A stretch of DNA of 62,331 bases, filler included, from Dugesia japonica (GCA_001938525.1; 6 parts of 6 records of this genome joined end to end with filler, not necessarily neighbours in it), one strand, 5' to 3'; positions 32,421 through 62,331 are shown, counted from the first letter of the whole stretch. Notes: generated from the sequence alone by a model not told the origin. Numbers and translations are program-made.

Positions 32421-32734
32421 TTGAATATAAGACTATTAAATTAAATATATTCAATACACTACATTATGATTTATTGATATTTTCAACAATAGACCAACAC
32501 TGAAGCAAGCAAGTAATACCTATTCTATTTTTCTGATCCAAACTAGCTTTCGCTTGATTTTCAGTAAGTTTCTTTGCTATAAGTTAGAAAAATGATAAGT
32601 AAAGATAAGAGTGAGATTGTAGCTAACCAGCATTTATTCTAACTCCGACCCCGCAGAACCTTCAGACAGGAGGTACAGATATCGGCTAGTTTTAATGAAC
32701 AACTAGCTACAACGACAAACTAGCTATAACGAGA

Positions 32735-33000
32735 TTTAATCAAAAATTTTATAGTAATCGATAAAATTATTTGAAATTTCATAATAGTCGATAAAGATTT
32801 TATGAAATTGCACAGCAGTCAATACAGATTTTATAAAATTGCATAGTAGTCGATAATTCTTTCAAAATCCTATGTAAAAGAATGGGAAAATAAATCTGAA
32901 AATGACTGAAAATATTTTATGAAATTGCACAGTAGTCACAAATTATTTTATGAAATTTTTTAGAAGTATAAAAAGATTTTATGAAATTTACATGAAGTAT
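32735..33000. repeat. ~31-bp degenerate tandem array
   Basis: Unit approximately GATTTTATGAAATTGCACAGTAGTCGATAAA, about 7 copies. Confidence 0.8.
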
Positions 33001-33733
33001 TCCAAATAAATGCACAATATGGTGTATTACATACATAGTTCAAGTCTACTACAAATACAGTATGAGTACATTACAAGTGTCATTCACATGACATTCTAAT
33101 ATTACTTAAGAAAAGGAATACATGGAAATTATTGATTATAATACTAACAAGTTTTAAATTGTTAATTTTTTAAATGGTTTCAATTCTTAATAGTAGAGAA
33201 TATCTAAACATACACAATACAACAGCTCTTAACAAACACAGCTCTCCCTATCATCAAGTAGTACCATACACAATACTCGATATCATCAGGTCTTAACATA
33301 TATAATACTCGATATCAAGTCTTAACACCTATTCACCTATTAATCATATACTTGTAATATTATTTCATTTAATCATTAAAGTTCTAATCAATCATTAACC
33401 TTTTAAATAAATTAATTTATTCATTTAAATATTTTAATTAAAATATTAATTAATTAATTAGTTAATTATTAGTTAGTTAATTAATTAACTGTAATAATAA
33501 ATATCTTTTGAACTAAAAATTACACTGACAAATCTTGAACATTCTTCGTGATAATTTATCCTAAAATATTCAAACATATTAAAGGTACTTAGATATGAGC
33601 TTATCAAAACAAGCTCCTTTAATTTTTCTACTTTTTAATAAAAATTTCCGTTTATACTTTTAGTAATTGTGACAAATTCAATAATAATAACCAAAAGCAA
33701 ATACACCTAAAATCTAATTTACAAAATATCTAT

Positions 33734-35164
33734 TCATTTATTACAATAAATATCTTTTAAAAGTCTAATTACACTGTCAATTCTTGAACACTGTTCTTCG
33801 TAATTTATTCTAAAATTTCTACAAACATTTTCTAAATTAATAATAGCTTTTAATGTAATATCAAGTTTCGACTGAGTGAAATAACCAGTATTTATTTTAC
33901 TATCAAAGTTATCAAATTTAACTTTCAGTTTTTTGATTGTGTATCTCATGTTTTTTAAAGCTTTCTTTAACACTAAACATTCGACCTTTGTCTTAAATTG
34001 GCCTCCATTATAGTAACGATTCAAATTAACAATAAGATTTCTTGATTCATTTTGATTATATTGAAAACTGGCGAATTTTGCTTTGATGTCTATAATTTCA
34101 GATTCTATTTCTTCTGAAGGATATACGTTTTTCTTTTGATTAATTAATTCTGAAGATAACAATAAACTTTGAAGATAGTAAAAACAATATTTCAATTCTT
34201 TATTTATAAATTTTGATTCTAAAGTCAAATGAGTATTTTCTTCGTTTATTTCTATAGAACATTTTTTTCTTGGTTTTATTATTTTACTAAATATCTTTGA
34301 TAACAAATTTTCTATTAAAAAATCTGCATTATTTAAATCTTTGAAAGCAAATTTCATATATTTTATTTTCATCCTTTGATAATCTTTTAATAAAAAATCA
34401 ATAATTATTCCTGTAAAATAAATTTGTTGATTGTATAAATTATCGCATTTTCCGAAATATTTTGAAATTATTTCAATATAATTCCACATTTCAGTTCGAT
34501 TAATTTTATTTTTTAAATACTCGCCGATTTTTGATTGAATCTTAGATATTAAATCAAAATAATATTCATTAAATTTGTGTAAAGTTCTGAAATTATCAAT
34601 CAATTGACTAACTAATTTTAAAATGTTTCTGAAGAAATTTTCGGAATTAAATTGGATCGATAACATATCCGAATAAATATATTCAATTTCTTTTAAAGAA
34701 TGGTTTGTCACTTTTCGTACCTTTTTTGCTGAGCAATTATTATTAAATTGTTTTGATATTTCATAAACGTTCTCATCTGAAATTTATATACAGTTATTAT
34801 CAGGCAGCACCAGTTCTGTAAATGATTTGAATCTTTTATCGATTTTCGATTTGTAATATTGACTTTTGAAAATTGATTTGTTAATTTCTTCACAAAAACT
34901 TATAACGAGTGGTTCAATTTTAAAAAATTCCAAAGATAATTTAAGCTTATTATGATTTAAAACAATATTATGATCAAGTGACGGATTTTTAAAGATGATT
35001 GATTTAATATCTAAACGATCAAATGGGCATCTCATGTTTTTTTGAATTAATTTCATTTAACATTCAACACAAATCACCTGATAGCATTTTTCTAAAATTA
35101 CAAAAGTTTTATCTTCATAATCCTCACAACAAATTAGACAAATATTTTCATCATTTTTTTCCAT
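33734..35164 (-). pseudogene. Intronless N-terminal RING-finger protein (~476 codons, two in-frame TAA)
   Basis: MEKNDENICLICCEDYEDKTFVILEKCYQVICVEC*MKLIQKNMRCPFDR. ATG at 35164 and track ORFs 35056-34784 and 34711-33734 share one frame. Confidence 0.75.
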
Positions 35165-35970
35165 TTTGGTATAATTATTAAAACAAATATTTACAAATAA
35201 AAGGTTATTTTATTAAATTATTATTTACAATAATGCTATTGGATATTTATTTAATTAATAATATTGTTTTTATTTCTAATATAATTGATTTAATTTGAAA
35301 AATAATTGAAATTTTGAAAATCAAAGAATAATTGTTATGAAATATTTCTGACAGATTATCTATAATCTTCATGTATAAAATTTAATAAATGACAAGAATT
35401 CTGATATATTATGATTATGTATTCAACTATGTATTCTTTTAAACAAATGAAATTAATTAAAATTATTCAATAAAACCATATAAAAACTTGTCAGATCATT
35501 TATTTTGAATTATCAGATCAAATCAATGAAGTTTCTCAATTATTTCTCTCATTAATCATTGAAATAATTACAGTAAAATTTGTAAAATAATCGATATTAA
35601 TAATTGATTTAGAACTAATATATTGTTCAGCAATATTTCCACTAACCAATCAATGATGTCCTGAAATATTGAAGAGATTGTGTAAATTATATCCAATATA
35701 TGTGAAATTACACTCATTATATTCATATTTATAACAATTTCAGAATACAGAAATATAATAAAAACATTATTTCTAAATATTGGAACACGTTTTAAAATTT
35801 AATAGATAAATCAATAAATATAAGAAATTTATAAATTTTTAATCTTATGAGGTTCAAACAAGCATTTGAAGGTCTCATTGAATTATTTAAATTAATATGA
35901 ATTGTTGAAGAGAATACACAATATAATTTTAATATGTAGTATCATTTAATTTGATTTTAAAAATTTGATT

Positions 35971-37232
35971 ATAAATGACAATTAACCCGTTGATAGATGC
36001 AACAAGGAAATAAATTTTAAAATAGTGTATCCATAGAAAAATAAGCGCATTAAAAGAAACAATGAACAATGTGCGACAACATTTATATATTATCTAAAGG
36101 AAGTAAGATTTACTAGATGAGCGCTATCTAAATAATTACATTATAAAACACTAAATTTGAAATATTAATGAGAAAATACATAATTGAAATCCAAATTAAA
36201 TTATATATTTAAATTTCTAGGAAAATTAAAAAATATTTAACAGCACGCAAAAATAAATATAGACGAGATTAAAATTTAAAAGGGAAATTTTAAAAATTAA
36301 ATTTAGAAAATTTTAAAATTATCGCAATAAAAATTATTAAAATAATTTTATTTTATTATTAATTGAATTAATATATATCTTAGAAAATTATTTGGTATTT
36401 ATAAGTTTGAAATTAAAAATATTGTTGTAAAATAAGCAATGTTAAGTTAAGTGAGGATGAACTCAATTTATAAAAATTCAGTCTAGTATTGAATCGTTAT
36501 ATGAATATTATTTGAATAGGTAAAAATAAATCTAATGCGAACGTGGATATTTCTAATTTTAAAATGTTTTCTAAACAATTTACAAATTATTGGAAGAGAG
36601 AATTGAATAAACATGAAATGATTACACAAACAACTATTTCGATTTGGATTATTTTGTAAAATTTTCTAATAGGTTTTTACTAGGTTTTATTTATTTTATG
36701 TCTGTAACTTTTTAATAAAATTTCAAAAAATTTGGAATTTTTATTAGTGGTTTAAAATTTTAATAAATATTTTAAAACTTTTTAAAAAAGAAAAACACTT
36801 TTTTTAAATTAGGAAATTTTTTGATTAATTAGATTTTAAATATTTGCTAATAAATGACAATTAACCCGTTGATACATCTAGCAAGGAAATAAATTTAATA
36901 ATAAAAAATAATAAATATGTAATAAAATACTCGCATTTAAAGAAACAATGAACAATGAGCGTAAACATTTACATATTTATAAGAGGCAATATCTACTAAA
37001 TGTGCTTTATCAAAACAGTTTCATTATAGAACACTAAATGTGAAATATTAATGAGAAAATACAGTATTGCAATTCAAATTAAATCATTTTTTTTATATTT
37101 AAATTTTTAGGTAAATTAAAAATATTTCACAACACACAAAAATAAATATAAACGATATTTAATTTTTTTTCGCAATTTAAAAAATTAAATTGAGAAAATT
37201 TTAAAATTATTTCAAAAAAAATTAATAAAAAT
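35971..37232. repeat. Diverged ~380-bp direct repeats (35971-36350, 36850-37232)
   Basis: Shared blocks ATAAATGACAATTAACCCGTTGATA, AAAGAAACAATGAACAATG, GAAATATTAATGAGAAAATACA. Confidence 0.85.
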
Positions 37233-39416
37233 TACCGTTTAATTAAAAATTTAAAAATGTGGATAAAATTTAGTAATTTGTTAAGTTATTTTACTAGGTT
37301 TCATGTTGATTCGGTGCAGTCAAAACAATCGATATTTGGGAAGTGTTTTGCTAAATTCTATTTAGAATCTGCGAATTTAATTTAAAATTTTTACAGTCAT
37401 CTTGTTGAGAACATTTTAACTATTTGTTATTGTTATACTAATTTTCTATTTGATTTATAATTGTTAATTTTGTGTCGAAGTTGTCGTTTTAAATTTTAAT
37501 TATTTTTCAACTAGTTTGGTTTTAACTAAAATTTTATTAGGTAATTTGAGGTTGTAAATTGTTTGTTAAACAAATATTATATCAAAGATTTATAAATAAT
37601 ATTTGTATTTTCAGAGTTAGATATATTTTAAAAAGAAGGTTACCAATTAAATTTATAAAATTTACTTTCGAAAAGTTAACAAAAATTTAAAAATTGTAAA
37701 AACTAAATTCGAAAATAACTTTATTTAATTTAAATTAATCGCCAAAAGTTAAAACAAATGAATAATTCGTATTGGCCCCACACGAAAATGTTCAATTAAT
37801 TCTGAACCAAATTGAAAATCTTTCTGTCAATGGAATTCTGAAAACTTTGTTAGTGGAGGAGGAAATTTTATAAATATTCCTTTCCTTGTAATATTAAATT
37901 AAGTTAATTTAATTTAGTTAATTAACTGAATATTTGTGTTCTGCAATAAAAGAATCAATTATCTAAAATTTGGCATATTTATGTAAAAAATTAAATATTT
38001 AATAGAAAATGTATAAAAATCCCATTTAAAAATTTTTTTTATGTAAAATTTTTATTATTTTAGAAAGAAAAAAATTTTTAGTTTTATTTCATTAAAATAA
38101 GATAAGGCTTCGATCAAAACAAAATTTATTTGTAAAAAAAGTTCAAATTTTCGACANNNNNNNNNNNNNNNNNNNNNNNNNNNNNNNNNNNNNNNNNNNN
38201 NNNNNNNNNNNNNNNNNNNNNNNNNNNNNNNNNNNNNNNNNNNNNNNNNNNNNNNNNNNNNNNNNNNNNNNNNNNNNNNNNNNNNNNNNNNNNNNNNNNN
38301 NNNNNNNNNNNNNNNNNNNNNNNNNNNNNNNNNNNNNNNNNNNNNNNNNNNNNNNNNNNNNNNNNNNNNNNNNTATATTATACTTAGAATTTTTTAATTT
38401 TGATTTTTGATTTTTTTGTATTTTTTTTATTTAAAATTTTCAAAAAAAGCCCATTTTGTTTTGTACTTTTATGAAAATTTTTTTAAAAATTTTTATTTTG
38501 TTTTGTGTTTTTAATACATATAATTTATGTTAAAAATATTATTTTTTTTAAAAATTTCTTTATTAAAATTCATTCAAAAATGAACTANNNNNNNNNNNNN
38601 NNNNNNNNNNNNNNNNNNNNNNNNNNNNNNNNNNNNNTCTTTATTAAAATTCATTCAAAAATGAACTAATTTTACATAATATTATAAAATTAATTTTTTT
38701 CTGAACTAAAATTTTTTTTTTAAAATTATTTTAAAATTAGTATTAGGACAACTAATTAATATATTTAATTAATATTATTAATATTATACTTAATTAATAT
38801 TATTAATATTATACTTAATTAATATTATTTCGTTTTTTTAAATTTTTTATATAAAAAATATATTAATTTTAAAAAAATTTATTTATAGATATTTATATAG
38901 ACTTTTTTTTTAAATCAAAAATATCTCTTTTTTTAGTTTTATTAATAAGAAAATTCTTTTAAAAATCTTTTTATTTTTTGTTTAAGAAATTTCTGTCCAC
39001 ATAAGAAAATTCAAATATCAATATTCATACCAGAGTAGGGCTGCCAGGTAAAACCGTAAAAATTACCGGACAAAATTTTGAAGTGAAACCTTTTAAAATA
39101 AAACTAAATTTTAAAATAAAATTATGCTTTTTTATTTTTTGTATATTTTTTGTATATTTTTCATTTTGGTTTTGGGAAGTAGCTTTTAGCAGTTTTCATT
39201 TTTAGAAAATATTTCTCTTACATTTTGCCATGTATAAGGGATATTAAAGAAGATACAATATTCGCTTTTAACTAAATTCAACGACATTCGATTTCATTCG
39301 TTGGTTCATAGATTGGTACAAATATATTAATACAATTTTAATACAGTAATTTTTATTTACCAATATCGATTGATTTTCGATTGAACTGACTTGAGTTGGA
39401 TAGATTATCTCCAGCA

Positions 39417-39850
39417 AGTAAGGGGATAGTAACGCACGGCGCCACTTTGAAAATTGGGACAATTTAGAGGAGCTCCCACCCCGAAGGAGGGGCTCGGAAG
39501 CACATTACGATTGTCCTGGTTATTTTTTTCTAAAATTTTTAGGATCAAAATTTTTTGATTGGATCGTTTTTTATGATTGGATCATATTTTTTTGATCCTG
39601 GTGGCGTGTTTATTTTTTAATTTTAAAATTTGTGTGTGTTTGTGTTGTTAAGATGTTTTTTTAAAAGTAGGTCAAGTTGAGTTTGTGTGTGTGTTTGTTT
39701 TTGTGTGTGTGTAAGAGTGAATTTGCACTCGAAGTGGAGCTGGAGATCTTGAAAATAATTTTTTTGAAGTTTTTAAGATTTAGTTGTTGTTGGACAAAAA
39801 TTTGGTCTATATATTGTTTAAATGACTTATGAGGTTGGATGGATGGTTTG
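39417..39850. mobile_element. Polinton terminal segment (left end)
   Basis: AGTAAGGGGATAGTAACGCAC, 17/21 identical to the reverse complement of 48658-48678; adjoins a truncated pPolB. Confidence 0.65.
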
Positions 39851-39929
39851 TCCTAGAAGTGTAATTTGGCACGGGGACAGTCGTATGAGTTATCGTGGGG
39901 TTTTATTTGGAGGCTGTATTGTAAATTGC

Positions 39930-41483
39930 GACCACATAATGCTATACTTAAGTATATGATGTAAATCATATCCTTCAAATTGTGAAATAGAGCGGGTAGT
40001 TGTACATTTATTCTTCGGCTTAGATTGCATTTACTACAAGCTGCTCCAATATACTTTATGGTGAAATGATCATGATCACGAACCATGTTGTTTATAGGAT
40101 ATTTACATAAGTGAATATTTATAGAAGCAGCAAATAATATTTTTTATGTCAATGTTAATGCATTCATTTTCTTTTTTCCGTTGGTTTGATAATAAGGGTT
40201 AACAACATTATTGTTTACTTTTTTTACTGCCTTTAAGACATCAAATACACAATCATTTCCAATAAACTGACTGTATTTCACCTAGTTGGTAAAATTATTT
40301 ACTAATAGGAGTCCAGCCAAAATAAGTAAATGTTTCTGGAAATGTTTTTCATCGGGAGCCAATACTGATTTAAAATCAGCATATATCACAAAAAGAGGAG
40401 TTACTGTTTTTGAGTAATCTTTGAACTCTAAATTTGTTTTTGTCGACATAGTGTATAATGTGGTGCCCATCTGAATTTTATCACAAATTGGTTCATGAGT
40501 TTTATAAGCCATATTATCTCGGAATTCATTAAGACAATTATGGTACCACGTTGATCAAATTCATACACCATTCTTTTTCATATCTCAATTCATTAGTCTG
40601 TTTAGATTCATTACTGCGGTGTAATGAAATTTGTTGGTATCTTCTAATAATAACAGATAAATTTTCCTACTCTGACTACTTTAGACCTGTGAATTATGTC
40701 TAAATTCTAGTGTTTCTTAACAATATCATTCTCATCATCTACTATTGAATTCTGATTCCACAAAAAGATACTAATTGATAGTTTGGGATTTCTTTTCTCA
40801 AATTTGGGTATGTTCACCAACTTCATTGGGATATCAACTTCATCAAAATTTAACTCTGACATCTATTTTTGATAATTTTCTACTCGATTCCTATGATTTT
40901 TATCAATTGCATTTTCTTTGATAATAGCAAGAATACTATAAATAAAACATAAATTGTACTTGTTCTTAACATTGACTATTGCTTTTTTCTTAGAAAAGTT
41001 GATAGGCGTTGGGATGTAACTTTTACCGGAAAGTCTTATAATACCAGATACCTTGGTAATTTTGAAATTTATTTCTAATATGCGGTTCAGTATCCAACTT
41101 GAATCAATTTCGTTTCGTATTGCAATTTTATCGTTTAATGCTTTTATTCCTTCTTCGAAAAAAGTATAGTTTAAGGAGACAGCACGGTTTGATAATCTGT
41201 AAGTTTTTGTTACTTCATCTTTAATAAATTTCACATTGATTCCGAATTGAATTTTAACATTTTAAAATTCCTCTATGGTTTTAAATAATTGTTGAATCAA
41301 AGAATTTGGTAAAACAATTTCTGATGTATTCCACTTTGATATATCGATTTTAAATATCTGATGACATCGGTATAGATCCCCTTCAATCAACACATCATCA
41401 TTTAGAGAGCTACCAACAATCATTCTTTTTTCTTCATCAATAAACTTTTGTAATATATCATCACTTTCATCCATTTCATTCAC
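39930..41483 (-). pseudogene. Polinton pPolB N-terminal half (copy 2) with endonuclease VII-like Zn finger
   Basis: LSGKSYIPTP..KKAIVNVKNKYNLCFIYSIL, exo I YADFKS, VRDHDHFT.KYIGAACSKCNL, exo II LFHNLK. Clearly homologous to 60890-62065. Confidence 0.92.
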
Positions 41484-41567
41484 TATATTTTTGTTATTAT
41501 TGTTGGGATTTTAGGATTTATTATTTTAAACCTATGCTACTCTCACAATTATCTTGGTATGATTACC

Positions 41568-41667
41568 NNNNNNNNNNNNNNNNNNNNNNNNNNNNNNNNN
41601 NNNNNNNNNNNTTAATTAATTAANNNNNNNNNNNNNNNNNNNNNNNNNNNNNNNNNNNNNNNNNNNN
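41568..41667. other. Artificial contig spacer
   Basis: N44-TTAATTAATTAA-N44. Confidence 0.95.
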
Positions 41668-42110
41668 TAATGAGACCATAAGAATGTGATCCATCATGAG
41701 CTTTTCAAACCTATTCATAGGGAAATTGAACCAAGATCAGAAAATTCGTCTGAGGCAGACATGGCGTGAAAAACGATCAGAGTGTTAGATAGGGCAATAT
41801 AAATTCATTTTTGTGCTTAACAATGCCTGGCTTTACGTCACAAAAGAAGTTCAGGAAATTTTAAAGAAACGTAATTGTAAAATGTTAATCAAACCGGCTT
41901 AGTCACNAAACTGTGTCTCTTCAGACCTATTATCTGTTTTGGTTGATGAAACACTCACTTATTGAGAAACACTTCCAATTCTTCGAATAAATTGAAAAAT
42001 GAGTCATTGGCTGGTCAACCACTAAAGATGCAGATGTTTTTGTTGCGGAATTCATTAGTTTCTAAAAAATGAGAGAAAGTCATTGATAATAATAGCTAAT
42101 ACTTTGAATA
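41668..42110 (+). mobile_element. mariner transposase C-terminal remnant
   Basis: NNAWLYVTKEVQEIL..KPA*S.NCVSSD/YYLF resembles HDNARPH..HPPYSPDLAPSDYYLF. Confidence 0.7.
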
Positions 42111-44209: not shown

Positions 44210-45463
44210 ATATGGGCTGCTGTACTACTAGGGCTAATGATTACTTCATTTATGTGTTTCTGTCTCTCTACACATGAAGAGTTTCGTAAAAAAACTCGAC
44301 GACACTTAAGCTATAATAATAGCAGTATTTGCAATAAAGAAAATATTGAAAATAACAGAAAGATTAGGCGAGACTGTACCACAGAACCTTTAACTGCTTT
44401 GGTACTTTTAGATGTTTTGCTCAATATTATATTTACTGTAGAATTTTTTCTCAAATTATTATTAGCCCCGTATAAAGCAAAATTTCTCAAATCTTCTATC
44501 TCAATTCTCGACATTTGTATTATGTCCTCATATTGGATTTATACTACACTTTTCTATTTTTACTATTATTATCCATCCGCTTTAAACCAAAATCTAACTC
44601 AGGATGCAACAATCCTTTGGGCATTGAATGTCTTATCAATGACCCAATCATTAAGAATTCTTAGAATATTTAAGATATCAAAAATTTCACGCGGACTTCG
44701 TGTTCTTATGCTCACTATAAAAAAGAGTATCCCCGAATTGGTGCTTCTTGCGTTTTTATTGATGAATGGAATGTTTCTTTTTTCTTCTCTTATTTATATG
44801 GCAGAATACAAAGAGAGTTCAACATTTCCGGATATACCAAAGGCTTTTTGGTGGTCAATTGTAACTTTGACTACGGTAGGATATGGAGACAGTTATCCAA
44901 GAGGTGGTCCAGGGTATTTAGTTGGTTCTATAACTGCAATTTGCGGTTGTATACTAACTGGATTAGCCATTCCAATTATTGGTAATAATTTCAATACATA
45001 TTATATGTATATGAAAAATCAGTTGAAAGAAGATAAATATTTAAAAGAGCTTGAAAAAGACATGTCTCATTGTGCTAAAACAACAAAAATAAATGGTCAT
45101 AAAGGTGTAAATAAAGGAAAATGTGCTGTCGTAAATAAGGATTCGTCTAATAATTTTATGTTTCGTCGAAAATTTACAACTGTCGAATGTCCGTTATTTG
45201 CAGCCAATTTAGCTGGGCTTCCAAGACCAATGTCTGATGCAGCAATTCAAAATAAAAGCCCTGAAACTAGTGTTACATCCAGCCAAATACCAGTTATTGA
45301 TCCTTCTGATGAGATGATCGATGGATCTATTGTTAGTTTTAGTAAGCCAAGCAGTACTACGCAAAAAGATGAAAATGATTGTGGAGAAATTAATATAGCG
45401 TTCAGTTCATCTTATAATACTGGTCTTGATCAAAACAAAAAGCAAAGAGAAGATTATGTTTAA
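44210..45463 (+). CDS. Voltage-gated K+ channel, Shaw/Kv3-like; terminal exon encoding S1-S6 and the C-terminus
   Basis: Acceptor TTTATTTAG then IWAAVLLGLMITSFMCFCLSTH (S1), FTVEFFLK (S2), LRILRIFKISK (S4), FWWSIVTLTTVGYGD pore, S6. Intact frame; the T1 exon is not in this contig. Confidence 0.95.
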   Translation: MWAAVLLGLMITSFMCFCLSTHEEFRKKTRRHLSYNNSSICNKENIENNRKIRRDCTTEPLTALVLLDVLLNIIFTVEFFLKLLLAPYKAKFLKSSISILDICIMSSYWIYTTLFYFYYYYPSALNQNLTQDATILWALNVLSMTQSLRILRIFKISKISRGLRVLMLTIKKSIPELVLLAFLLMNGMFLFSSLIYMAEYKESSTFPDIPKAFWWSIVTLTTVGYGDSYPRGGPGYLVGSITAICGCILTGLAIPIIGNNFNTYYMYMKNQLKEDKYLKELEKDMSHCAKTTKINGHKGVNKGKCAVVNKDSSNNFMFRRKFTTVECPLFAANLAGLPRPMSDAAIQNKSPETSVTSSQIPVIDPSDEMIDGSIVSFSKPSSTTQKDENDCGEINIAFSSSYNTGLDQNKKQREDYV

Positions 45464-46299: not shown

Positions 46300-48502
46300 T
46301 TTGGCCGAATAACAGATGGATAAAAAGATGCACTGAAAAGATTGTATTTCTCGGAAACCGGAAATTCTAAATAAAATCTTAAATCATAGAAAACTTTATA
46401 AGGATATAAATAAAACGATGAAATTTTAACTTAGTTATTCTTTATTTAAAAAAGAACTTTGAAAAAAATGAAAATTAAGGGAAAATTTTATTTCGGGTTC
46501 CTGCTAAAATTTGCCGGTAAAAAAAGTATAAATAAGCAGTAGTTTTTCATTTATTTTAGGATAAAACTAATATGAGTGCTTCAAAACGATATAAAAGAAG
46601 CATTGTTTGAGAGTAGTTTTGTGATTGATGGAGAAAGTATTCACTTAGCAAGATATAATCTCTGTAACGAAAGAATTACACGAGGATTAGCCGGAAAAAC
46701 AAGAGATTTTAGTACTACTCTTTTGATGTATCACCTTAATGAAAAACATCCATATGTTCATAAAACAATTGAAAGTGGCAAATTATCAAAAAAGCTCGAC
46801 GAGAATACTTCATCAGGTAGTTCCCAGAAAACTATATTCCAATGTTTTGAAAAATCAATTCAGTGGTCAATTGATTCTCCTCAAGCAACCAAAATTCATT
46901 TTTTAAATTGGAAAGATGATAGCTTTGGATATTTAGCCATTGCAAATAGTTGAAAATGCTTTCAATTGTTGCTTAATAATTTGGAACCAAGATATAAAAT
47001 TTTTTCGAGAAAATATATTTCAGAAAATATTCTACCTAGTTTATTTGATAAAATGAAATCAAATATTTCGAATGCATTAAATGGTATCAGAAATATTTCA
47101 TTTTCTGCAAACATGTGGATTGCAAGTTTTTCAATTCAATCATTTATGTGTCTCACTGCTCATTGGATAGATGATGTTTTTAATCAGAAATTTGCTGTTT
47201 TATTTTGTGAGCATTTTNNNNNNNNNNNNACATCTGATAATATAGGCGCATCATTCAGAATAATTATCAAAAATTGGTCCATCAAATTATCCGACTGTCA
47301 TACTATTTTACACGATAATGGTGAAAATATAAAAAAAGCTTTTCATTGCTTAGAAATTTCACAAAGTTTTTGTGTTGCGCATACTATTCAATTAATTATT
47401 CATTATGGTTTTAAAAATTAGTAGGATATTCAACAGATTTAATCAATTATAAGAATGTTTGTTGGGAATTTCAAGAGTTCTACATGTTCAAGTGCTAGAT
47501 TGAGAGAAATCCAGCTAAATTTGCATCTTTCTGCTTTACAACTAATTTAAGATGTTGNTATTAGATGGAATTCAACATTTTATATGATATGCAGATTTCA
47601 TGAGATAAAGAATTCCATAACTATATTTTGTTCTGAAAATGAAAGGGTTTCAAATCTAACTGCAGCTCAATATTAATCGAGGACCTTATCAATATATTGA
47701 GTTCATTTGAGGAAATCACCCGTGATTTATCAAAAGAATGTGCAACAATTTCGATAGCTATTCCTGCAATAAGAGCACTTAGTCTTTTGATGTCGAAACC
47801 TTCAACAAATAATTCAATACAATCATAAAAGAACTCTTTTAAGGATTCAATTTTGAGTCGATTTTCAAATTTGGAAGATCTTGTATCTTTAATCGCTACC
47901 TGTCTTGATCCAAGATTTAAAATGAAATTTTTTCAATCAAACGAAACAAAATTTACTATTAAATCGAAAATTCTGAATACTGTTGGATATAGCACTGATT
48001 CTGAAATATTTCATTCAAATGAAGAAAAGAAACATAAAGTCGAGGAAAATGATATTTGGGGTTTCCTTGATGACGTTAATGATACAATTATTCAAAATAA
48101 CTTCGGTCAAAATGATACAGAAAATGAAGTGAGTATTTATTTATCTGAAAACTCTAAATGAAAATATATTCGATTGGTGGAGACATAATTCCAAGAGATT
48201 TCCATTTTTGTACGAGGAAGCCCAAAACTATTTATCTGCTCCTCTGACCACTGTTCCACCTGAAAGAGTATTAAGTTCTGCTGGTGATGTAATAAGTAAA
48301 CATCAATCAAGATTATTACCGGAAAATGCTGAAAAATTAATAATATTGAAGGTTAACATGAAATATGTCGATTAATTTTAATTTAATAAAAATGAATTTT
48401 TTATTTAAATTTATTCCGGTTCCGGTTATCCGTCGGAAATATATTTTAGCCCGAGAATTTTAGGTTCCAACGGAATAGAAAATATTTCATTCCGCCCAAT
48501 CC

Positions 48503-51659: not shown

Positions 51660-52338
51660 TCATTTTTAGTTAAATGACTTTGCAAATAAGCAAAACTTTC
51701 TGACTTAGAGTACGAAAAACCCGCATGCTGTTTTGGAACAATCAATACAAAAAGTAATAGTTTGGTGTGGTTTATTGTCTGGGTGTGTAATTGGAAAAAA
51801 AACGGCTATTCAGTTACCAAAGATAGAGAAGGTTACAGGAACATGATTTCTGATTTTTTGTGGAATGAATTACAAGATTTTGATTTAAACAAAAGGTCGT
51901 TTCAACAATATGATGCAACATGTCATACATCTCATGGTTCAAGAAAATGGTTCCTTGGCCAAAAAATCACAAAATAAGCCGATGAAGACTGACCAGAAAA
52001 TCAGGTAATATAACTCCGTTGGACTTCTTTCTTTGAAGTTACGTTAAATTATTCGTTTATAGTAAGAAACCTTAAACACTCAATGATTTGAAAACCAGCA
52101 TTAATCGTAATTAATAGGTAGAATTAATGCTGACTTGTGTAAAAAATTGACCAAACCTTAGTGTTTCAAAATCGCATTTTAAAAGGGTTCCGAGGTGGTT
52201 ATTTACAAGAAAAAAATTGTTTTATTAAAAATGTTATGAATCAATATTTAATACAAATATAAATAACATTGATTTCTTACACCATTTCTGATTTTTATTT
52301 CAAATTAAAAATATGTAGTTGTTATTTGATAACTCTAT
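51660..52338 (+). mobile_element. DD41D (rosa-like) Tc1/mariner remnant
   Basis: YRNMISDFLW..SFQQYDATCHT and ITPLDFFL*SYVK..VY..KP*TLNDLK. Confidence 0.75.
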
Positions 52339-53057: not shown

Positions 53058-53157
53058 NNNNNNNNNNNNNNNNNNNNNNNNNNNNNNNNNNNNNNNNNNN
53101 NTTAATTAATTAANNNNNNNNNNNNNNNNNNNNNNNNNNNNNNNNNNNNNNNNNNNN
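53058..53157. other. Artificial contig spacer
   Basis: N44-TTAATTAATTAA-N44. Confidence 0.95.
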
Positions 53158-53759: not shown

Positions 53760-54409
53760 ATGAGTAAAAAAGAAAACAAGATAGAGAGATTAAGAAATGA
53801 CACAGTCTATCAAATTGTAGAACCTAGTGGTAGCGGGAAAACTTTACTTGTATGTCATTTATTGAAATCAAAGTTATTCAAGTCTAAATTTAAAAACATA
53901 TACTAACATAGGGGTGCTGATGAGAAGCATGGTTTGAAAAAATCTAAATTTTGTAATATTAAAATAAAAGTCATAAATAGTTTTGATTCTAATTGGAGTA
54001 AAAGATTAAGACCAAGTGATGTTATTGTTGTTGATGATCTGTATCATGAGGCAAATAAAGAAAAAGATTTCAATAATTTATTCACAAAGATATCGAAACA
54101 CTGTAATGTGACAGTTATATTTATTACTCAAAATCTATTTCATCGAGGAGGTAGTCATAGAACTCGCAATTTAAACGTGCAATATTTGGTTCTATTCAAA
54201 AATCCTAGAGATCAAACTGTTGTTAATTTTCTAGCAAGACAAGCATATCCAAATAACATAAATTTATTATTGAATCATTTCAAGATGCAACAGAAAAACC
54301 ACATGGATATCTATTTCTCGACTTTACACAACAATTTCCAGATGTTTATAGTGTGAGAACAGATATATTCAACCCTAATGGTATCACAGTATATAAGAAA
54401 AATAGGTAA
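53760..54409 (+). pseudogene. A32/FtsK-like packaging ATPase
   Basis: Walker A (E)PSGSGKT, Walker B VIVVDD, VIFITQNLF, YLVLFKNPRD, frameshifted PHGYLFLD; one stop. Confidence 0.93.
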
Positions 54410-54429
54410 TTTTTATAATATTATATAAA

Positions 54430-54772
54430 ATGCAAAGTTTAAGAACATTGTAATTGATTCAGTTACTAATGGTGATGTTGTTAAACATCGAAAATGGTTG
54501 GTTTTGAAGAAAAAGTCAAATCAATCTTATAAGGAAAAATCTCATTAGAAACAATCTCATCAGAAAACGTATGGAAATAAGAAAAAACAATTGAATAAGT
54601 TTTAAAAAACTTTAAAAAAAGATGGAAAGAAATTGGAAATGAGAGATGAAAGATAGATATCACATAAGAAAACATATGCAAATAAGAAAAAGGAATTGAA
54701 TAAGTTTAAAAAACTTCCAAAAATTACTAGAAAAAAACCAGAATTTATGAATGGAAAATGGATATCATTATA
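54430..54772 (+). pseudogene. Small Lys/Glu-rich Polinton ORF ending KWISL*
   Basis: Position after the ATPase, ATG start, internal duplication AAATAAGAAAAA..ATTGAATAAGTTT. Confidence 0.45.
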
Positions 54773-54809
54773 AACAACTAACTGGTATGTCTTTNTTATT
54801 GAAATAAAA

Positions 54810-55140
54810 ATGAAATTAGAAATAAGTATTCCGTTTTTTACTGCTTTGATTAAATTATCACAATCAATGAGAATGAGAATTTTGGAATCATTTCCAATAT
54901 ATGTTATTGATGATTTACTTAAGATTATTGTAAATATTGTTCATGGTAATGTAAATTTGAGCAAAGGTTAAAAGGAAACGTTGAAAAAACAGAAAAACCT
55001 TACTATCGCTTGTAAATACTAAAAATAGGAGATTGATGAAAAAAAGTAATACGAAATAATCAAGGTAGTAGATTTATAGCAGCATTACTAACAATTGCAT
55101 TAGCAGCATTAGGCTTAAATCATTTCAAAAAAACCATTGA
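54810..55140 (+). pseudogene. Polinton core-like protein with a C-terminal hydrophobic peptide after a protease site
   Basis: MKLEISIPFFTALIKL..RMRILE..IVNIVHGNVNL..NNQGSRFIAALLTIALAALG resembles the NIL.GNV.L..QxGGFL pattern of Polinton ORFs. Confidence 0.65.
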
Positions 55141-55225
55141 AGATTTTGATCAATATATTAATAAACAATAGGTGGATTGCAATCATTACCTAGTTTTCAC
55201 TTGAAATTAGCATCGAATTGTTGTA

Positions 55226-56281
55226 ATGGAGAAACTAAAGACAATATAGACGGATCCATAAAACCTAGCAGGTTTTCGAGGCGTAGACAAATTGATGAAA
55301 GCATCACAAAAAACAAAAAGAAAGACCAAAAAGTGGATTTAAGGACAACCAGCATACAGCCTGAACAAGCCGATGTTGAAAAGATTTCGAACAAGAGCAT
55401 ATCAAACATATGGTATTGATGATTTATAGCAAATGGATCTAATGTATATGATTTCATATTCAAAAATTAATAAAGAATACAAATATATTTTGACATGTAT
55501 TCAGTAGATTTACAAGAGCTGTTCCTGTTAAATCAAAATCTGCTAATGATATGAAACCAGCAATCAAGTCAATGTTTAAAAATGGACATCCAGATAATTT
55601 ACAAACGGATTTGGGTAAGGAATTTTACAATTCCAAGGTGAAACAACTTATAAATAATCTATCCATAAACCATTATAGTGTATTCTCTCAGTATAAAGCT
55701 GCAGATGTAGAGAGATTTAATTGTACATTGAGAGATGCATTGAAAAGATACTTTGTACATGTTGGTAATTAAACTTGGATAAATGTTTTACCGAAACTTA
55801 TTCATAGTTATAATAATTCTGTTCATAAGGGATTAAATGAAGCAAGACCGGTTGATGTAAATACAAACAATCAACTAAAGTTAGGGTTATCACGTAAACA
55901 TTCAAAAGCAAATAAAAGACCAAAGTATAAAGTTGACAATCATGTGAGAATCTCAAAAATACCTGCTTCACGATTTATCAAGAATTTCAATAGTAATTGG
56001 AATGATGAAGTTTTTCAAATAACAAAATTAAACACTAAACAATTTCGGTCATGCATAATATTAAAGATTATGAAGATAATATTGTTCAAGGAAAGTTCTA
56101 TGAATAAAAATTACAAGTCATTCCACCACCAGAGATATATAGAATAGAAACAATAATCAAATATAAAGGAACTAGAAAGAATAAATAATACTGTGTAAAG
56201 TGGCATGGATACGAAAAACCAAGTTAGATATTAGCATCACAAATAGTCAATCAGGAAAAAAACTTTGATGAAATCGAGTAA
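55226..56281 (+). pseudogene. Retroviral-like (rve) integrase with C-terminal chromodomain
   Basis: AGFRGVDKL, GIDDL*QMDL, YKYILTCI, LQTDLGKEFYN, KAADVERFNCTL, YNNSVH, VRISK, QGKFYE, VKWHGY. Confidence 0.95.
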
Positions 56282-57297
56282 TTTCTATACGCTTTTACCT
56301 AGTAATAGCTGTCCACTTATTTTACCTGAGAATAATGCTAGTAAATTCATTGTCGAGCTACAAAATCTAATTACTATGGATTTTAGTTGGGAAGTTTCCA
56401 TGATGAACTTCACCTTTCTATATTCACCATTTCCAGTATATAGCAAGTCAAAAATTGAATATATGACTGCAAAAAATATATTGAAAACATAACTGTAACA
56501 ATAAATAACAAAGAAAAACACATAGTGTTGATAAAAATAATAAATTTGAAATATTTGAAAATAATCTCATAAGATTTTATTGTAATTTTCCATATGTTGT
56601 AATATTTGAAGATGCACATATCGCACACTCATTTGGATTAGTATTTAAATCTAACAAATTATCAAAGTAATTTGGTCATATCTATACAAACTTTACAAAT
56701 GATGACACAGTACAAAAAGTAAAAATTAAAGTAGCTTAAACAGTGGTTAATTATCATACTTTTCAGTTTAAAGATGATATATACATATCAGAATTGGAAC
56801 AATTCAGTAAATATTTGACCAAAAATTGTACTCAAATATTTAAGAAATGTCTTATAAATGCGGATAAATATTTTGAATTTGAGCTACAAGATGATGTCAA
56901 AAAAGGTGTATTTGATAATGTCTTGACAAGAACATTGGGATTAGACAAACAACAATATTCTCCTCTGGATATGATAGGAGGTGAGTTCAAAGCTATTACC
57001 AAATCAAAAATAATGAACTTACATCAGCAGATGTTCATCTTTAGTAGTCTTGTTGAACCTTTAATTGCAGGTGATGTTAGTGTACCTTTATTAAAATCAA
57101 TATAGATAGAAAAGCATGAAACTGATGAAGTAGTGCAAATTATAGTCGAAATTCCAATGTATTTACCTATTGCAACATCATGTATAAACAATATAGAAAT
57201 TAATATACGCGATAATAACGTAAAATTAATCAAGTTTCCAAAACATTCAAAAACCCATTTACCTTTACATTTTAGAAAACTAAATAATGAATCCTGA
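56265..57297 (+). pseudogene. Minor capsid protein (penton)
   Basis: N-terminal FYTLLPSNS..PENNASKF..WEVSM; C-terminal FIFSSLVEPLIAGDVSVPLLK..MYLPI..IEINIRD..LHFRK. Confidence 0.85.
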
Positions 57298-57460
57298 TAT
57301 TTTTTCAATGTATAATACTAGTCAAATAGGTAAAGAATTACCTTACATTTTTTGAAACAGTAGGTAGGTAGATGAATAGTGGGTAGATTTGCTTTACCGA
57401 TTCTTTAACGTATTGGTTCTTTTTGTATGAAATCAGCTCAGGATGTACTAGCTAATGACG
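57287..57460 (+). pseudogene. PZ/cupiennin-like core protein remnant
   Basis: MNPDIFSMYNTSQIGKELPYIF..KQ*VGR*IVGRFALPIL*RIGSFCMKSAQDVL: QxG motifs followed by an amphipathic helix, between penton and hexon. Confidence 0.55.
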
Positions 57461-58300
57461 GAATAATACTACCAACATGGAAATCTAATGCATTAGCTAA
57501 ACTTGGAAGTTGTACTTTCGAAGATGCCTTTCCTATGAATTCAATTTCTGAATCACAAAGTGACATAAAGTTTTTTATAAATGGATCTCAAACAGAATAT
57601 TTGGATTTGAATGATACTTTATTGTATATTAACTTGAAGGTGGTTGATAAGGCTTGTAAAGATTGGACTGACACTCATGAGGTAGTTTCTAGTAATTATA
57701 TGTTGCATATGCTTTTTAAGGATGTAATTCTTTCGTTTAATAATTTCAAAATTGTAGGTGGAAATGGATCTTATCTTCACAAAGCAATAATTGAAACTAT
57801 AATAAATTAAAATGGTGATAGTAAGAATATATGTCTTGCAACAATGGGATATGGATCAGAAGCAGATAGAAAAATGTCTATTAAAATATCAAAACAATTA
57901 GCTCTATGCGGTTCATTACAACTCGATTTTATGGATCAACCGAAATACATTATTCCTATGTCAACGTTCATATTCGAATCTACAGCCCATACATCTAAAA
58001 ATGTATTACTAGATGCAAAATTAATGGTTAGACGTGTACGCGTTGAACCATTAGTACTAGTTGCTCATCAAATAGGACTAAAAAACAAAATACTGTTTAT
58101 CCAATAGAAACAAAGAAGTCGTTGCATTTGCAATTATTAAAGATAGTTTTTATAAGGAAAAAATCTTTGGTGATCGTCGATTACCTAGCTTTATTCTGGT
58201 TACAGTTCAAAGTGGTGAACAATATAATAATAGCTATAAAAACGCGAGTTCAACATTTCAAAATATAGATGCTGGTACATGTTATGAAGTAAATGTTATT
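57460..58300 (+). pseudogene. Major capsid protein (double jelly-roll, PY), internally deleted
   Basis: IKFFINGSQTEYLDLNDTLLYINLKVV, NYMLHMLFKDV, YLHKAIIETIIN, DFMDQPKYI, AKLMVRRV, IFGDRRLPSFIL. Confidence 0.85.
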
Positions 58301-58335
58301 ATATTAATGATTTTTACTTTAATAGTACTATTCAG

Positions 58336-58944
58336 ATGGATCGGATGCTTGGATCAGCATGGTTAGGTGTTTATGCGTTATATAAACTTCCAAAATATAT
58401 TCCAGTAAACAATGCCTTAATTGTCAATACTCATACATAAAATCTAGGTGGAGAACATTGGATAGCTGTTTACAATAAACCTGCTCAAATACTACTGGGT
58501 TGGCAAGAAAGTAATAGGCGAATATTTAAAGAAATAAAAGTCTTAAAACAATATGAAACAATATATAATTTTATTAAATAATGAATTGACCATTGTTTTC
58601 AAGGACCTGTTCTCATCTTCCAGGAAGCAAAAGAATTCCTCGTTCATAAAATTCCGTGGGTTTATCAGGATAAAATCACAACAAATCGGATTTGACATCG
58701 TCATCATTAGTATAAATTTTTGAATTGGATTGGACGTTTTTCTTGGATTGACGTGTTCAATTACTTTCTTGCCAACCCAATAGTATTCGATCCATTAGCA
58801 TTTTATTATCCATCAATGTTGGTGTAACACTTATCAAAAATTTAAAAGCCAATAGTCTACAATGAAATCTGATATCAAGATCCATTTACAACTACATGTG
58901 GTCAACACTGTTTATTATGGTTGAAAAAACAACATTGCACTTGA
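58336..58944 (+). pseudogene. Adenain-like cysteine maturation protease interrupted by a mariner element
   Basis: LGVYA..LIVNT..GEHWIA..[insert]..VFDPL..YQDPFTTTCGQHC. Removing 58495-58782 restores the frame. Confidence 0.92.
58495..58780 (-). mobile_element. Internally deleted mariner (mellifera-like TIRs) with TA TSD
   Basis: TA|CTGGGTTGGCAAGAAAGTAAT..ATTACTTTCTTGCCAACCCAA|TA; minus strand FYERGILLLPGR*EQVLENNGQF. Confidence 0.92.
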
Positions 58945-59892
58945 CAATNNNNNNNNNNNNNNNNNNNAAAAAATAAATGTCTTTTATTGAAATGAAATCT
59001 TTGTTATTTATTAAAACTAAGAATAAAAAAGAATAAAATGAAAATATTTATTTATAAAATATTTGTAAGTAATATGCTAATAATACATGTTTTTTTTATT
59101 ATTTGACACAAATTATCCAAAAAAATAAAATTAATTTAAAAAACCTCAACGTAATATGTCTGTATTTTTAAAAATTGATTTCAAATACTGAAACGTAATA
59201 TGTCTGCAATATTTTAAATACATTTGTCATTTTAAAATGCACACATACTCGAATTTGATTAGTTCGATTTGATTGTCTAGATTTGAAAACCTTGGTAAAA
59301 TTTATTATTATTCATCACAATTTCAAATTATTTTTAGAAAACATATGAGCAATTCAAGAGAGCTTTAAGTAATTTATTATTATTTTTAACATTATAAACT
59401 TTTATTTTTTGAATAAACATGAATTCATATAAACAAAAAGAAAGAAGATTTATTTAAACTATGAATGCTGTAAGATTCTTATTATTTATTATTAATAAAT
59501 TTTTTATGTAATTTAAAATTTTAACGAAATGCGACAGAAGTGAAGGATCTCAGATGATCGTGAATGGAGATTCCCGTTCTTTTATTTATAGTTCTTTTTA
59601 TTTTATTATATTTTTAAATATTTATTTAAGTTAAATTTTAATAATAATTTCTTTTTATAAGTTAAATTTTAATAATAATTTCTTTTTATAAGTTAAATTT
59701 TAATAAAATAAAACTGTTATGTTAATTTATTATGAAAAACAAATATGCTATGTTCTATGTTATGTTCCATAATAATATGATAATATGAAGAAATGTTCTA
59801 TATTATCAAGAAATGTTCTATGTTATGAAGAAGACGAAATGCTCTATTTTTTTTTAAATGAAAAAGTTCTATGTTTTTATCATTTTTCTGAA

Positions 59893-60240
59893 AACATTGC
59901 ATCACCAATATGATTTATTTTGGAAAATTGCAACGCTAATGAGATTTTGTAATACAAATTGGATCGTCAATGAGATTTTATTTTTAATTTTGCGACACTA
60001 ATGAAATTTCATATTAAAAATTACATCGGTAATGAGATTTTTTTATTTAAAATTGTAACGTCAATAAGATTTTATATTTAAAATTGCAACACTAATGAAA
60101 CATTTTATTAAAAATTGCAACACTAATGAAACATTTTATTAAAAATAGCATTGGTGATGAGATTTATTTTTAAAAATTAAATCGGTAATGAGATTTTTAA
60201 AAAAAATTTCATTACTAACATGATTTTTTTATTAAACATT
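59893..60240. repeat. 31-bp tandem array inside the Polinton
   Basis: Unit AAATTGCAACACTAATGAAACATTTTATTAA, about 11 degenerate copies. Confidence 0.85.
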
Positions 60241-60354
60241 ACCACTTTTATACGTTTTTTTAATGGAAAATACCATAGCTAATAAATTTTTTTTAAGAAG
60301 AAAAATGTTAAAATCATTATGTTATTATTATTATATTATTATTAATTATTTTAG

Positions 60355-60542
60355 AACATTGCAAATTATACAATCATTGCGCAAGTATGATTCATAATGG
60401 TGACTGTCATAGTATTATGGAAGGATACTATGGCCAACGGTTTTATGGAAAAAATTATTTTGTGTGTCCTAATTGTAAGGTATTAGACCTAAACAACTAC
60501 TCAAGATTTTATGACACATCAGAAACACTTGTCTTGTTTTAG
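60355..60542 (+). CDS. Small Cys/His-rich exon or ORF within the Polinton
   Basis: After a TTTTAG acceptor: HCKLYNHCASMIHNGDCHSIMEGYYGQRFYGKNYFVCPNCKVLDL..VLF*. Confidence 0.4.
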
Positions 60543-60577
60543 TAAAAGTAAAATAAATATATTAAAATAAATATTAG

Positions 60578-62331
60578 GTGGATAGTGAGTTTTTTGAAGT
60601 ACCAGTAAATAAGAGAATTACGATAGAAGAAATAACAGTTAAGGATGATGATATTGAAGAAATAATAATCAAGGATGAACCAGTTGAAATAATTGTTATT
60701 GAAGATGATGTTGAAGAAAAAATAATCAAAGATGAATCAGTTGAAAAAATTGAATATGTTGCTGGAGAAATTATCAATTTGGATCTAGAAGAAGAAACAG
60801 CTAATATTGTACAAGAAGAAGCAATAAATAGTGAATCTGATGATTGAAACAGTTTTGAAATAATTGATGAACTTGATGAAGAAGATATCATGTTACATAA
60901 GCTCGTTGATATTGAAGAGAAAAATAATCAAGTTGGTGGATTGATAATTAAAACTGAAAAGGATATCATGTTACAACAATTTATGGATGCAGAAGAAACG
61001 GAAAATAATAATCAAATTGCTGGATCAGCAAATAATACTGTAAAGAATGAAGTAATTATAGAATCGGATTTTTATCGTTGTCATAGGATACTTAAAATAG
61101 ATAATTCGAGATGGAATTGTCTTGAAATAATGTTACCAGAAGCTATAGTAAACAAATTATTTCAGACAATGAAAGAAATGAAAAAAGTTAAAATTCAATT
61201 GGGGATACATGTAGAGTTCAAAAGAATAATAACAGCTGCTGATGGAGAAGAATTTGAGATTAAAACCTGTAGTATATCAAATAGAGCCGTTGCATTAACT
61301 GATAACTTTTTTGAAGATGCGATCAACCAATTGAATGAGAAAATAACAATACAAAGCGAACTAGGCTCCAGTTGGATGTTGAACAGAATACTTAAAATTA
61401 ATTTCAAAATTAAAAAGGTTGCAGATATATGTCGACTTTCAGGAAAAAGCTATATTCGAACACTGGAAGATGTTAAAAGGAAAGAAGTAATTAAAAACCT
61501 CAAAACGATGATAATTACGGTTTTATTTACAGTATTATTGCTATCACCAAAAGTAATCAAGTTGGGCAAAGGAATAAAAACCAAGTAAGATTACATAAAA
61601 AATACATGTCGGAGCTTATTTTTGATGAAGAGGATATGCCGATGAAACTGATTGATATACCACAGTTTGAGAAGAATAATTTAGGACTATCCATCAGTGT
61701 CCTATCATGGAATCAAGAATTAGTGGAGGAAGAAGAAGATGAAATAATCATGAAACAGCCAAATTTGGATATAATACATCGTTCAAAAGTGGTAGATGGA
61801 GAGAAAATATATCTGTTATTGCTGGAAAATAACAACANATTTCATTACACNACAGTAATAAATCTAAATCGACTAATGAATAGGAATAATAAAAAGGAAA
61901 GTGTTCGAATTCGATCAACATGGTGTCCTAACTGTCTCAATGGTTTCAAAAATGAAGTAGCATATGAAAAGCATGAACCAATTTGTGAAAAGATCCAGAC
62001 AGGTACTACAATGTATACGATGCCAACAAAGAAGAACTTGATTTTTAAGGATTATTCAAAAACTCTGCGCTTATGTAATTCAGCAAAGAAGCTGATAACA
62101 TATACATTAAAAGCCGGATTTAAGAAAACGAAAAAAATAGATGATGATTTAATTGCTGTTCTTCTCAATAAGGGAATAGCTTACTTAGATCGGCCGAGCC
62201 ACATTGGACAAACTGTACTTGACCTCTCAAAATTGAGAATGTACAAACTTCAGTACTTTGAGTTGGACAAATATAGGAAGGCATTTCAATGTAAAATTAA
62301 TATTGTAGCCGGCGATGCAGATAGTGTTTTC
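60578..62331 (+). pseudogene. Polinton pPolB (copy 3) with an acidic N-terminal extension and a large internal deletion
   Basis: 60578-60847 is in frame with 60890 (one TGA). GSSWMLNRI, LSGKSYI, IPQFEKNN, WCPNCLNGF, FKDYSKT, then a jump to RPSHIGQTVLDLSKLRMY..AGDADSVF (motif C). Confidence 0.93.

What the first reader, a model, noticed from the sequence alone, without database searches (positions are those of the whole stretch)
53760..62331. Near-complete endogenous adintovirus-like Polinton with full virion morphogenesis module
ATPase, small ORF, core-like protein, integrase-chromodomain, penton, PZ-like protein, hexon, adenain, repeat array and pPolB are all co-oriented. Most are fragmented in the ORF track by stops and frameshifts. 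The element class is known, but with the other copies and termini this indicates a diverse, probably uncatalogued capsid-encoding virus lineage in this host.
Basis: partly seen in the sequence, partly recalled or inferred. Interest (0 to 1): 0.7.

Follow-up and report, generated by a model that had tools for sequence, protein, structure and literature searches.

The report
Decayed capsid-encoding Polinton in a flatworm
This is a broken, integrated copy of a Polinton, a virus-like jumping element of a kind already described in planarians, and it is mostly ordinary apart from a small overlapping gene, likely membrane-anchored, that its relatives share.

Summary
The gene set and order are real. 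ATPase, core-like protein, integrase-chromodomain, penton, PW-position gene, major capsid protein (MCP), protease and pPolB each match intact environmental relatives. Close relatives of the MCP and penton fold as double and single jelly rolls.

'Near-complete' overstates it. The MCP covers 64% of a relative. The pPolB lacks about 530-600 residues (exonuclease and most of the palm). The protease is split by a roughly 290-bp insertion, and no termini are present.

The host is a flatworm. Capsid-encoding planarian Polintons are in print (Polinton-1_SM and -2_SM, Krupovic 2014), and near-identical DNA is highly repetitive in this species' runs. Identity to those named families could not be tested.

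Two oddities remain. The pPolB is co-oriented here but convergent in 6 of 6 relatives that carry both genes.

The scan earlier noted Polinton ends elsewhere in this genome, not this capsid module. Verdict: a dead copy of a Beta-type adintovirus-like Polinton; low interest.

The parts
53760..54400 (+). A32/FtsK-like packaging ATPase, broken (2 stops, 1 frame change; first Walker A glycine not kept)
   Evidence: 65% and 50% identity to L002 ATPase, which hits Pox_A32 at E 1.8e-6; motif
54430..54770 (+). Lysine-rich small ORF with a 105-bp duplication, broken; likely a basic core protein (inferred)
   Evidence: Repeat; no clear hit; L004 has a lysine-rich ORF at this position, L002 and L022 have short repeats there
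54810..55127 (+). Core-like protein with a C-terminal GGF-type hydrophobic tail (Cupiennin/PM-like by position; that label is recalled), broken
   Evidence: Aligns with 7 relatives; Atlas clusters at 0.94-0.95 include Preplasmiviricota; Adeno_PX only at 0.79, a lead
55168..55419 (+). Small ORF overprinted on the integrase 5' end; Met-Gly start and Cys pair in relatives; start not kept in this copy
   Evidence: Alignment with 4 relatives; same frame offset in 11 of 12 relatives against 1 of 128 controls; window offset is the same
55226..56281 (+). rve integrase with C-terminal chromodomain, broken (8 stops, 2 frame changes in aligned parts)
   Evidence: Pfam rve E 4.5e-4 and Chromo E 6.5e-3 on window pieces; 52-58% identity to L017
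56268..57291 (+). Penton (minor capsid protein), broken
   Evidence: 46% and 32% identity to P0069; the P0069 model (pLDDT 88.7) matches mavirus, Sputnik, PBCV-1 and adenovirus vertex proteins
57287..57507 (+). PW/GasderminX-position protein, N-terminal 76 of about 118 residues, running straight into the MCP frame
   Evidence: naming by position
57502..58279 (+). Double jelly-roll major capsid protein, truncated at both ends
   Evidence: 65-67% identity to P0001 over residues 25-289 of 406; P0001 model pLDDT 88.8, Z 27.0, rmsd 3.6 over 360 residues to a PBCV-1 capsid chain
58330..58932 (+). Adenain-type maturation protease in two pieces (His part, Cys part), 4 stops
   Evidence: Peptidase_C5 E 0.043 on the window piece and E 1.1e-7 on relative L012; 51-54% identity to L033
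58488..58787 (.). About 290-bp insertion with inverted ends, mariner-like by recalled end sequence, inside the protease gene
   Evidence: 28 of 30 bases complementary; skipped by contigs in 4 of 4 DNA runs, and longer relatives of the insert exist elsewhere
58949..59900 (.). 19-N scaffold gap and AT-rich spacer (18% GC)
   Evidence: Two listed contigs bridge the gap (X7 record 30, X11 record 16); composition
59912..60208 (.). 31-bp tandem array, about 9 copies, upstream of pPolB; likely regulatory (inferred)
   Evidence: TRF; CpG observed/expected 1.72; among the deepest bins
60357..62331 (+). Protein-primed PolB: N-terminal Cys-rich region, acidic stretch, OTU-like domain, large internal deletion, motif C; cut by the window end
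   Evidence: 35-64% identity to L022, L005, L002; jump of 531-602 residues; OTU cysteine position not kept in this copy

Best explanation
This is an integrated, decayed copy of a capsid-encoding Polinton in a flatworm chromosome, likely of the Beta adintovirus type, and its broken capsid and polymerase genes cannot yield full-length proteins. Shown: gene content and order, the breaks, jelly-roll folds of close relatives, and a very repetitive family in this species' DNA runs. Inferred from established Polinton biology: an ancestor was inserted by its chromodomain integrase and copied by protein-primed PolB from terminal repeats. It would have built an adenovirus-like particle (MCP faces, penton vertices, ATPase packaging, protease maturation of small core proteins). 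After insertion this copy decayed by point changes, internal deletions and a later transposon insertion.
For: Same order and strand, ATPase-core-integrase-penton-PW-MCP, in all 9 related loci that carry these genes. MCP relative at 65% identity is a double jelly roll (Foldseek E 1.8e-17; VIA Z 27). Penton relative matches mavirus penton at E 3e-9 and vertex proteins at Z 11-14. 19 stops plus deletions. 31,000-42,000 contig pieces laid per run in three runs of organism A, about half at 90-95% identity, all 30 bins covered. Beta-type signs: the 3 closest pPolBs have no PF03175 match and carry an Endonuclease_7 insert; Cupiennin-like and GasderminX-position genes are present and no PLA2 domain was seen.
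Against: pPolB orientation differs from 6 of 6 relatives that carry both genes, so the two halves may not be one element. No termini or target-site duplication are visible. Beta assignment rests on Pfam behaviour of relatives and gene position, not on a tree with named adintoviruses: the 20 relatives looked up had no informative names. The penton link is only 32-46% identity to the folded protein. A short-read assembly of so repetitive a family could be a mosaic of copies.
Confidence: 0.88

Rival explanations
1. Two elements or a rearranged one: the capsid module and the array-plus-pPolB come from different Polinton copies, or from an inversion, so the co-orientation is not native.
For: pPolB is convergent in 6 of 6 relatives with both genes. 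In L002 and L022 it starts within about 550 bp of the contig end. An exonuclease-like ORF (label recalled from its motif; no Pfam hit) follows the protease in 19 loci and is absent here. Earlier scan notes place tandem arrays near Polinton ends in this genome (unchecked).
Against: No end motif pair in the spacer. The spacer has the lowest depth, unlike a high-copy terminus, yet is covered in 4 of 4 runs, and the N gap is bridged. None of the 15 listed joints (of 621) changes strand. L002 and L019 also lack the exonuclease-like ORF there. Same-strand modules are known in Xenopus tropicalis Mavericks. In 10 of the 30 flatworm rows I saw (of 748) in Jeong 2023, the integrase lies 4.5-7.6 kb upstream of pPolB as here, but integrase strand is not given and those may be another pPolB class.
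Confidence: 0.35
2. A member of a non-autonomous deletion family: the MCP and pPolB deletions predate amplification, and the shortened element was spread in trans by intact Polintons.
For: Large internal deletions remove exactly the polymerase core and part of the capsid. Non-autonomous Polintons are catalogued, e.g. Polinton-1N1_DR.
Against: The protease insertion is not shared by many copies. No listed joint or contig shows the deletions as shared or unshared, and the pPolB junction lay outside the stretch laid. Another pPolB fragment in the window keeps part of the region deleted here (39940-40674).
Confidence: 0.2
3. An assembly mosaic of several copies of a live family: the breaks are partly artefacts and an intact or extrachromosomal virus exists in this host.
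For: Fragmented assembly with many N gaps and extreme repetitiveness. Planarian Polintons are de-repressed on PIWI loss (passages).
Against: One 159-nt contig matches the window letter for letter across the broken PW-position gene (X1 record 7). Breaks are spread over nearly every gene.
Confidence: 0.1

Closest known systems
Polinton-1_SM and Polinton-2_SM of Schmidtea mediterranea (Repbase; Krupovic et al. 2014, PMC4028283 Table S1)
   Same: Flatworm host group; MCP, penton, ATPase and protease all scored present; 14.9 and 15.9 kb.
   Different: This copy is 8.6 kb, broken and without termini. Sequence identity to these families and their gene orientation could not be tested; the host species is not shown.
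Beta adintoviruses (Starrett et al. 2021, PMC8502044; family renamed Eupolintoviridae, PMC12451622)
   Same: OTU-bearing pPolB divergent from PF03175, rve integrase with chromodomain, FtsK, adenain, hexon, penton; Cupiennin-like and GasderminX-position genes.
   Different: No flatworm is among the maps listed in their Fig. S2 text. The PW-position protein is short in close relatives (about 100-140 aa). A gasdermin fold was not tested.
Vertebrate Mavericks (Barreat and Katzourakis 2021, PMC8097293)
   Same: Integrase-penton-PW-MCP-protease module in the same order.
   Different: There pPolB and ATPase form a second, usually opposite-strand module with PM and PZ. Here the ATPase leads the capsid module and pPolB follows it.
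Unnamed metagenomic Polintons L002, L004, L017, L021, L022, L025
   Same: Same module order, 46-55% MCP identity, same overprinted ORF.
   Different: Intact frames; convergent pPolB where present; TBP-like and exonuclease-like accessory ORFs not seen in the window.

Membership tests
Polinton/Maverick | [quoted passage not shown] | tested here: met
   Remnant at 35-64% identity to full-length relatives that carry Exo I-III, Pol B and Pol C motifs. The window keeps only motif C.
Polinton/Maverick | rve integrase | tested here: met
   Pfam rve on the window piece; E 1.6e-11 on the relative at 52-58% identity
Polinton/Maverick | Terminal inverted repeats, end motifs and 6-bp target-site duplication | tested here: inconclusive
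   None seen; the left side meets an N gap and the right side is the window end
Eupolintoviridae (Adintoviridae) | Double jelly-roll hexon | tested here: met
   By a relative at 65% identity; the window's own copy is truncated and was not folded
Eupolintoviridae (Adintoviridae) | Single jelly-roll penton | tested here: met
   By a relative at 32-46% identity, E 1e-28
Eupolintoviridae (Adintoviridae) | FtsK-type ATPase and adenain | tested here: met
   Pox_A32 and Peptidase_C5 on relatives; His and Cys motifs seen in the window
Eupolintoviridae (Adintoviridae) | OTU domain at the pPolB N-terminus | tested here: inconclusive
   Motif level only: Cys and His patterns in relatives; His kept and Cys position not kept in this copy; no fold test
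Eupolintoviridae (Adintoviridae) | Animal host | tested here: met
   All 7 named hits (of 17) of the K+ channel exon 8 kb upstream are flatworms; N gaps lie between it and the element
Beta adintovirus | pPolB divergent from PF03175 | tested here: met
   No PF03175 hit in the 3 closest relatives; a weak one (E 7e-13) in the distant L061
Beta adintovirus | GasderminX and Cupiennin genes, no PLA2X | tested here: inconclusive
   Genes at the expected positions and no PLA2 hit, but no comparison with named reference proteins
Beta adintovirus | Clusters with the Terrapene exemplar in a pPolB or hexon tree | not testable with these tools
   No named reference sequence was returned; the tree has unnamed rows only
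Polinton-1_SM / Polinton-2_SM | Nucleotide identity to the Repbase family | not testable with these tools
   No Repbase and no host genome held

The most novel reading that the evidence does not exclude
The host carries a massively amplified, so far unnamed Beta-type Polinton family with a native single-strand layout, and this clade encodes an undescribed small lipid-anchored (myristoylated and palmitoylated) virion or entry protein overprinted on the integrase start.
Probability: 0.25. Interest if true: 0.5.

Novelty: new member of a known kind. Interest (0 to 1): 0.25.

Why it matters
The locus itself matters little: decayed Polintons are common, and capsid-encoding ones are known from planarians. 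If the overprinted Met-Gly/Cys-pair ORF is a real protein, it offers a candidate for how these non-enveloped particles reach or cross membranes, a step not worked out for Polintons to my recollection. A very high-copy family in a laboratory flatworm, where Polintons are PIWI targets, would make questions about Polinton particles observable in existing data.

Tried and rejected
No host genome was held, so copies and termini could not be mapped. Six-frame Pfam scan of the whole element gave only weak rve and zinc-finger hits. Pfam barely sees the MCP family: 2 of 44 members hit DJR-like_dom. A PDB sequence search with a relative's pPolB found nothing useful. IMG/VR scans with MCP, overprinted ORF and integrase found no relative. 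The Atlas gave no usable hit for the overprinted ORF. No RNA holder was listed for the stretch; this is no evidence, and expression stays open. The MCP tree (quick method, 50 rows, all unnamed; 11 of 16 chosen loci dropped by a length filter) puts the window nearest P0001 in a 16-row set at 97% SH-aLRT but names nothing. Literature searches with no paper: Maverick+Platyhelminthes+capsid; Polinton+overlapping+integrase+myristoyl; Polinton+endonuclease VII+pPolB. The Starrett supplement is cut as stored; the stored part has no flatworm names, and its unread 'Adintoc' sequences may include the overprinted ORF. The Koonin 2024 review was not held. Facing poly(A)-like motifs after the protease were rejected as evidence: the DNA is 82% AT. 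Summed contig depth was not used as a copy number.

Full report
Observation. The stretch 53760-62331 is AT-rich (28-30% GC in coding parts) and has no long open frame. Pfam on single-frame pieces gave weak hits for rve, chromodomain, a P-loop and adenovirus protease. A search with the MCP-like frame returned 44 proteins of 392-431 aa, the best at 65% identity. These led to 72 metagenomic loci. Their ORFs map onto the window gene by gene: ATPase, core-like protein, integrase-chromodomain, penton, PW-position gene, MCP, protease and pPolB, all on the + strand. All 9 loci that carry ATPase through MCP have the same order and strand.

Folds. I folded natural relatives, not the window's broken genes. 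P0001 (MCP relative, 44-row alignment) gave pLDDT 88.8. It matches iridovirus, PBCV-1, Sputnik, faustovirus and mavirus capsid proteins (Foldseek best E 1.8e-17; Z 27.0, rmsd 3.6, 360 residues). Top named BFVD hits include a bracovirus-associated protein and adomavirus LO7. P0069 (penton relative, 35 rows) gave pLDDT 88.7 and matches mavirus penton (E 3e-9) and PBCV-1, Sputnik and adenovirus vertex proteins (Z 11-14).

State of this copy. Aligned parts hold 19 stops and several frame changes. The MCP matches residues 25-289 of 406, so most of the second jelly roll is gone. The PW-position gene runs into the MCP frame after residue 76 of about 118. The pPolB covers 33-36% of three relatives. 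It jumps from just before Exo I to after motif B, a gap of 531-602 residues in all 26 relatives that hit both sides. The protease is split by a roughly 290-bp insert with inverted ends, which contigs in 4 of 4 DNA runs skip. No termini are present. The copy is dead and not near-complete.

Host and family. The K+ channel exon at 44210-45463 has 17 hits, 7 of them named, all flatworms. The best two hits are unnamed. With about 25% GC this suggests a planarian (inference; an earlier scan note says the same). Twenty runs from 10 studies hold part of the stretch, most labelled organism A. In three runs of organism A, 31,540-42,011 contig pieces were laid, about half at 90-95% identity; a run of organism B gave 1,978. 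The family is therefore highly repetitive and diverse. The window also holds two other pPolB fragments, 38-63% identical in protein.

What is in print. Krupovic 2014 (first part of the text and Table S1 read) lists four S. mediterranea Polintons, two with MCP, penton, ATPase and protease. Jeong 2023 (passages and 31 supplement rows) counts 748 integrase-linked pPolBs in 8 of 73 flatworm genomes. PMC8532177 (passages) reports planarian Polintons as PIWI targets. A Dugesia genome preprint (passages) reports Maverick expansions. Starrett 2021 (first two of six parts, passages, part of the supplement) defines Alpha and Beta types and has no flatworm mention in the main text. The ICTV 2025 summary (passages) renames the family Eupolintoviridae. 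Barreat and Katzourakis 2021 (one section and passages) gives the PW/PZ naming. PMC11071308 (passages) describes the OTU domain of pPolBs. PMC6431247 (passages) added nothing specific.

Type. The three closest pPolBs lack a PF03175 match and carry an Endonuclease_7 insert. The module has Cupiennin-like and GasderminX-position genes and no PLA2 hit. By Starrett's criteria this is Beta-like, but no named reference could be placed in a tree. The polymerase class is large: 2,723 representatives at E below 1e-30.

Oddity 1, orientation. In 6 of 6 relatives with both MCP and pPolB, pPolB converges on the module; here it is co-oriented. The N gap is bridged by two listed contigs, and the spacer is covered but shallow in 4 of 4 runs, which does not look like a terminus. 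Same-strand layouts are known in Xenopus. Ten of 30 flatworm rows seen in Jeong 2023 fit the spacing, with the caveats that integrase strand is not given and the pPolB class may differ. I put a native layout at about 60-65%.

Oddity 2, overprinted ORF. A short ORF that starts Met-Gly and has a Cys pair runs into the integrase start in the same alternative frame in 11 of 12 distinct relatives. The same pattern occurs at 1 of 128 starts of five other genes. The pattern was set after seeing the integrase cases, 8 loci were skipped for lacking the 5' end, and many loci come from related samples, so this is not 12 independent events. The window has the counterpart at 55168-55419 in the same frame offset, without the start. 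Myristoylation and palmitoylation are predicted from the motif only. I found no description, but could not read the Adintoc sequences.

Mechanism. Shown: content, order, breaks, folds of relatives, repetitiveness. Inferred: integration by the chromodomain integrase, replication by pPolB, an adenovirus-like particle in the ancestor, then decay. Untested: expression, particles, and the role of the 31-bp array.

Verdict. A real but ordinary decayed Polinton, a new or already named member of a known kind. Interest 0.25; the overprinted ORF is the lead worth keeping.

Noticed in passing
window 28450-30108 (+) and 39853-41468 (-): Two more decayed pPolB fragments, 38-63% identical in protein to the focal copy, each beside a contig-join spacer; the second keeps the Endonuclease_7 insert.
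   Followed up: partly
window 44210-45463 (+): Voltage-gated K+ channel coding stretch of the host; all named relatives are flatworms.
   Followed up: yes
window 46576-48375 (+): Decayed hAT transposase with BED finger and dimerisation domain.
   Followed up: no
window 51690-51977 (+): Fragment that resembles a Tc1/mariner-type transposase by a recalled motif; no Pfam support.
   Followed up: no
window 33734-35056 (-): About 440 codons with a single stop and no Pfam family; one of the longest frames in the window, origin unknown.
   Followed up: no
window 12194-12559 (+): Weak match (25% identity, E 7e-5) to an accessory ORF of the related Polinton L022:1256-1822.
   Followed up: partly
window 32744-33000; 8585-9025 with 31885-32334: A second 31-bp array and a pair of inverted repeats 23 kb apart, possibly ends of another large element.
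   Followed up: no
window 9059-9158, 18697-18796, 28228-28327, 41568-41667, 53058-53157: Five 100-base blocks of 44 N, 12 letters and 44 N; likely artificial contig joins, so long-range order in the window is uncertain.
   Followed up: partly
L022:5616-7684: Two penton-like genes in tandem in one relative.
   Followed up: no
L022:225-719, L022:2420-2866, L017:952-1260: Related Polintons carry accessory genes for a ubiquitin-conjugating enzyme, a TBP-like protein and a dual-specificity phosphatase.
   Followed up: no
window 14481-14783 (-): Weak GIY-YIG-like fragment, E 0.23, possibly from a Penelope-type element.
   Followed up: no
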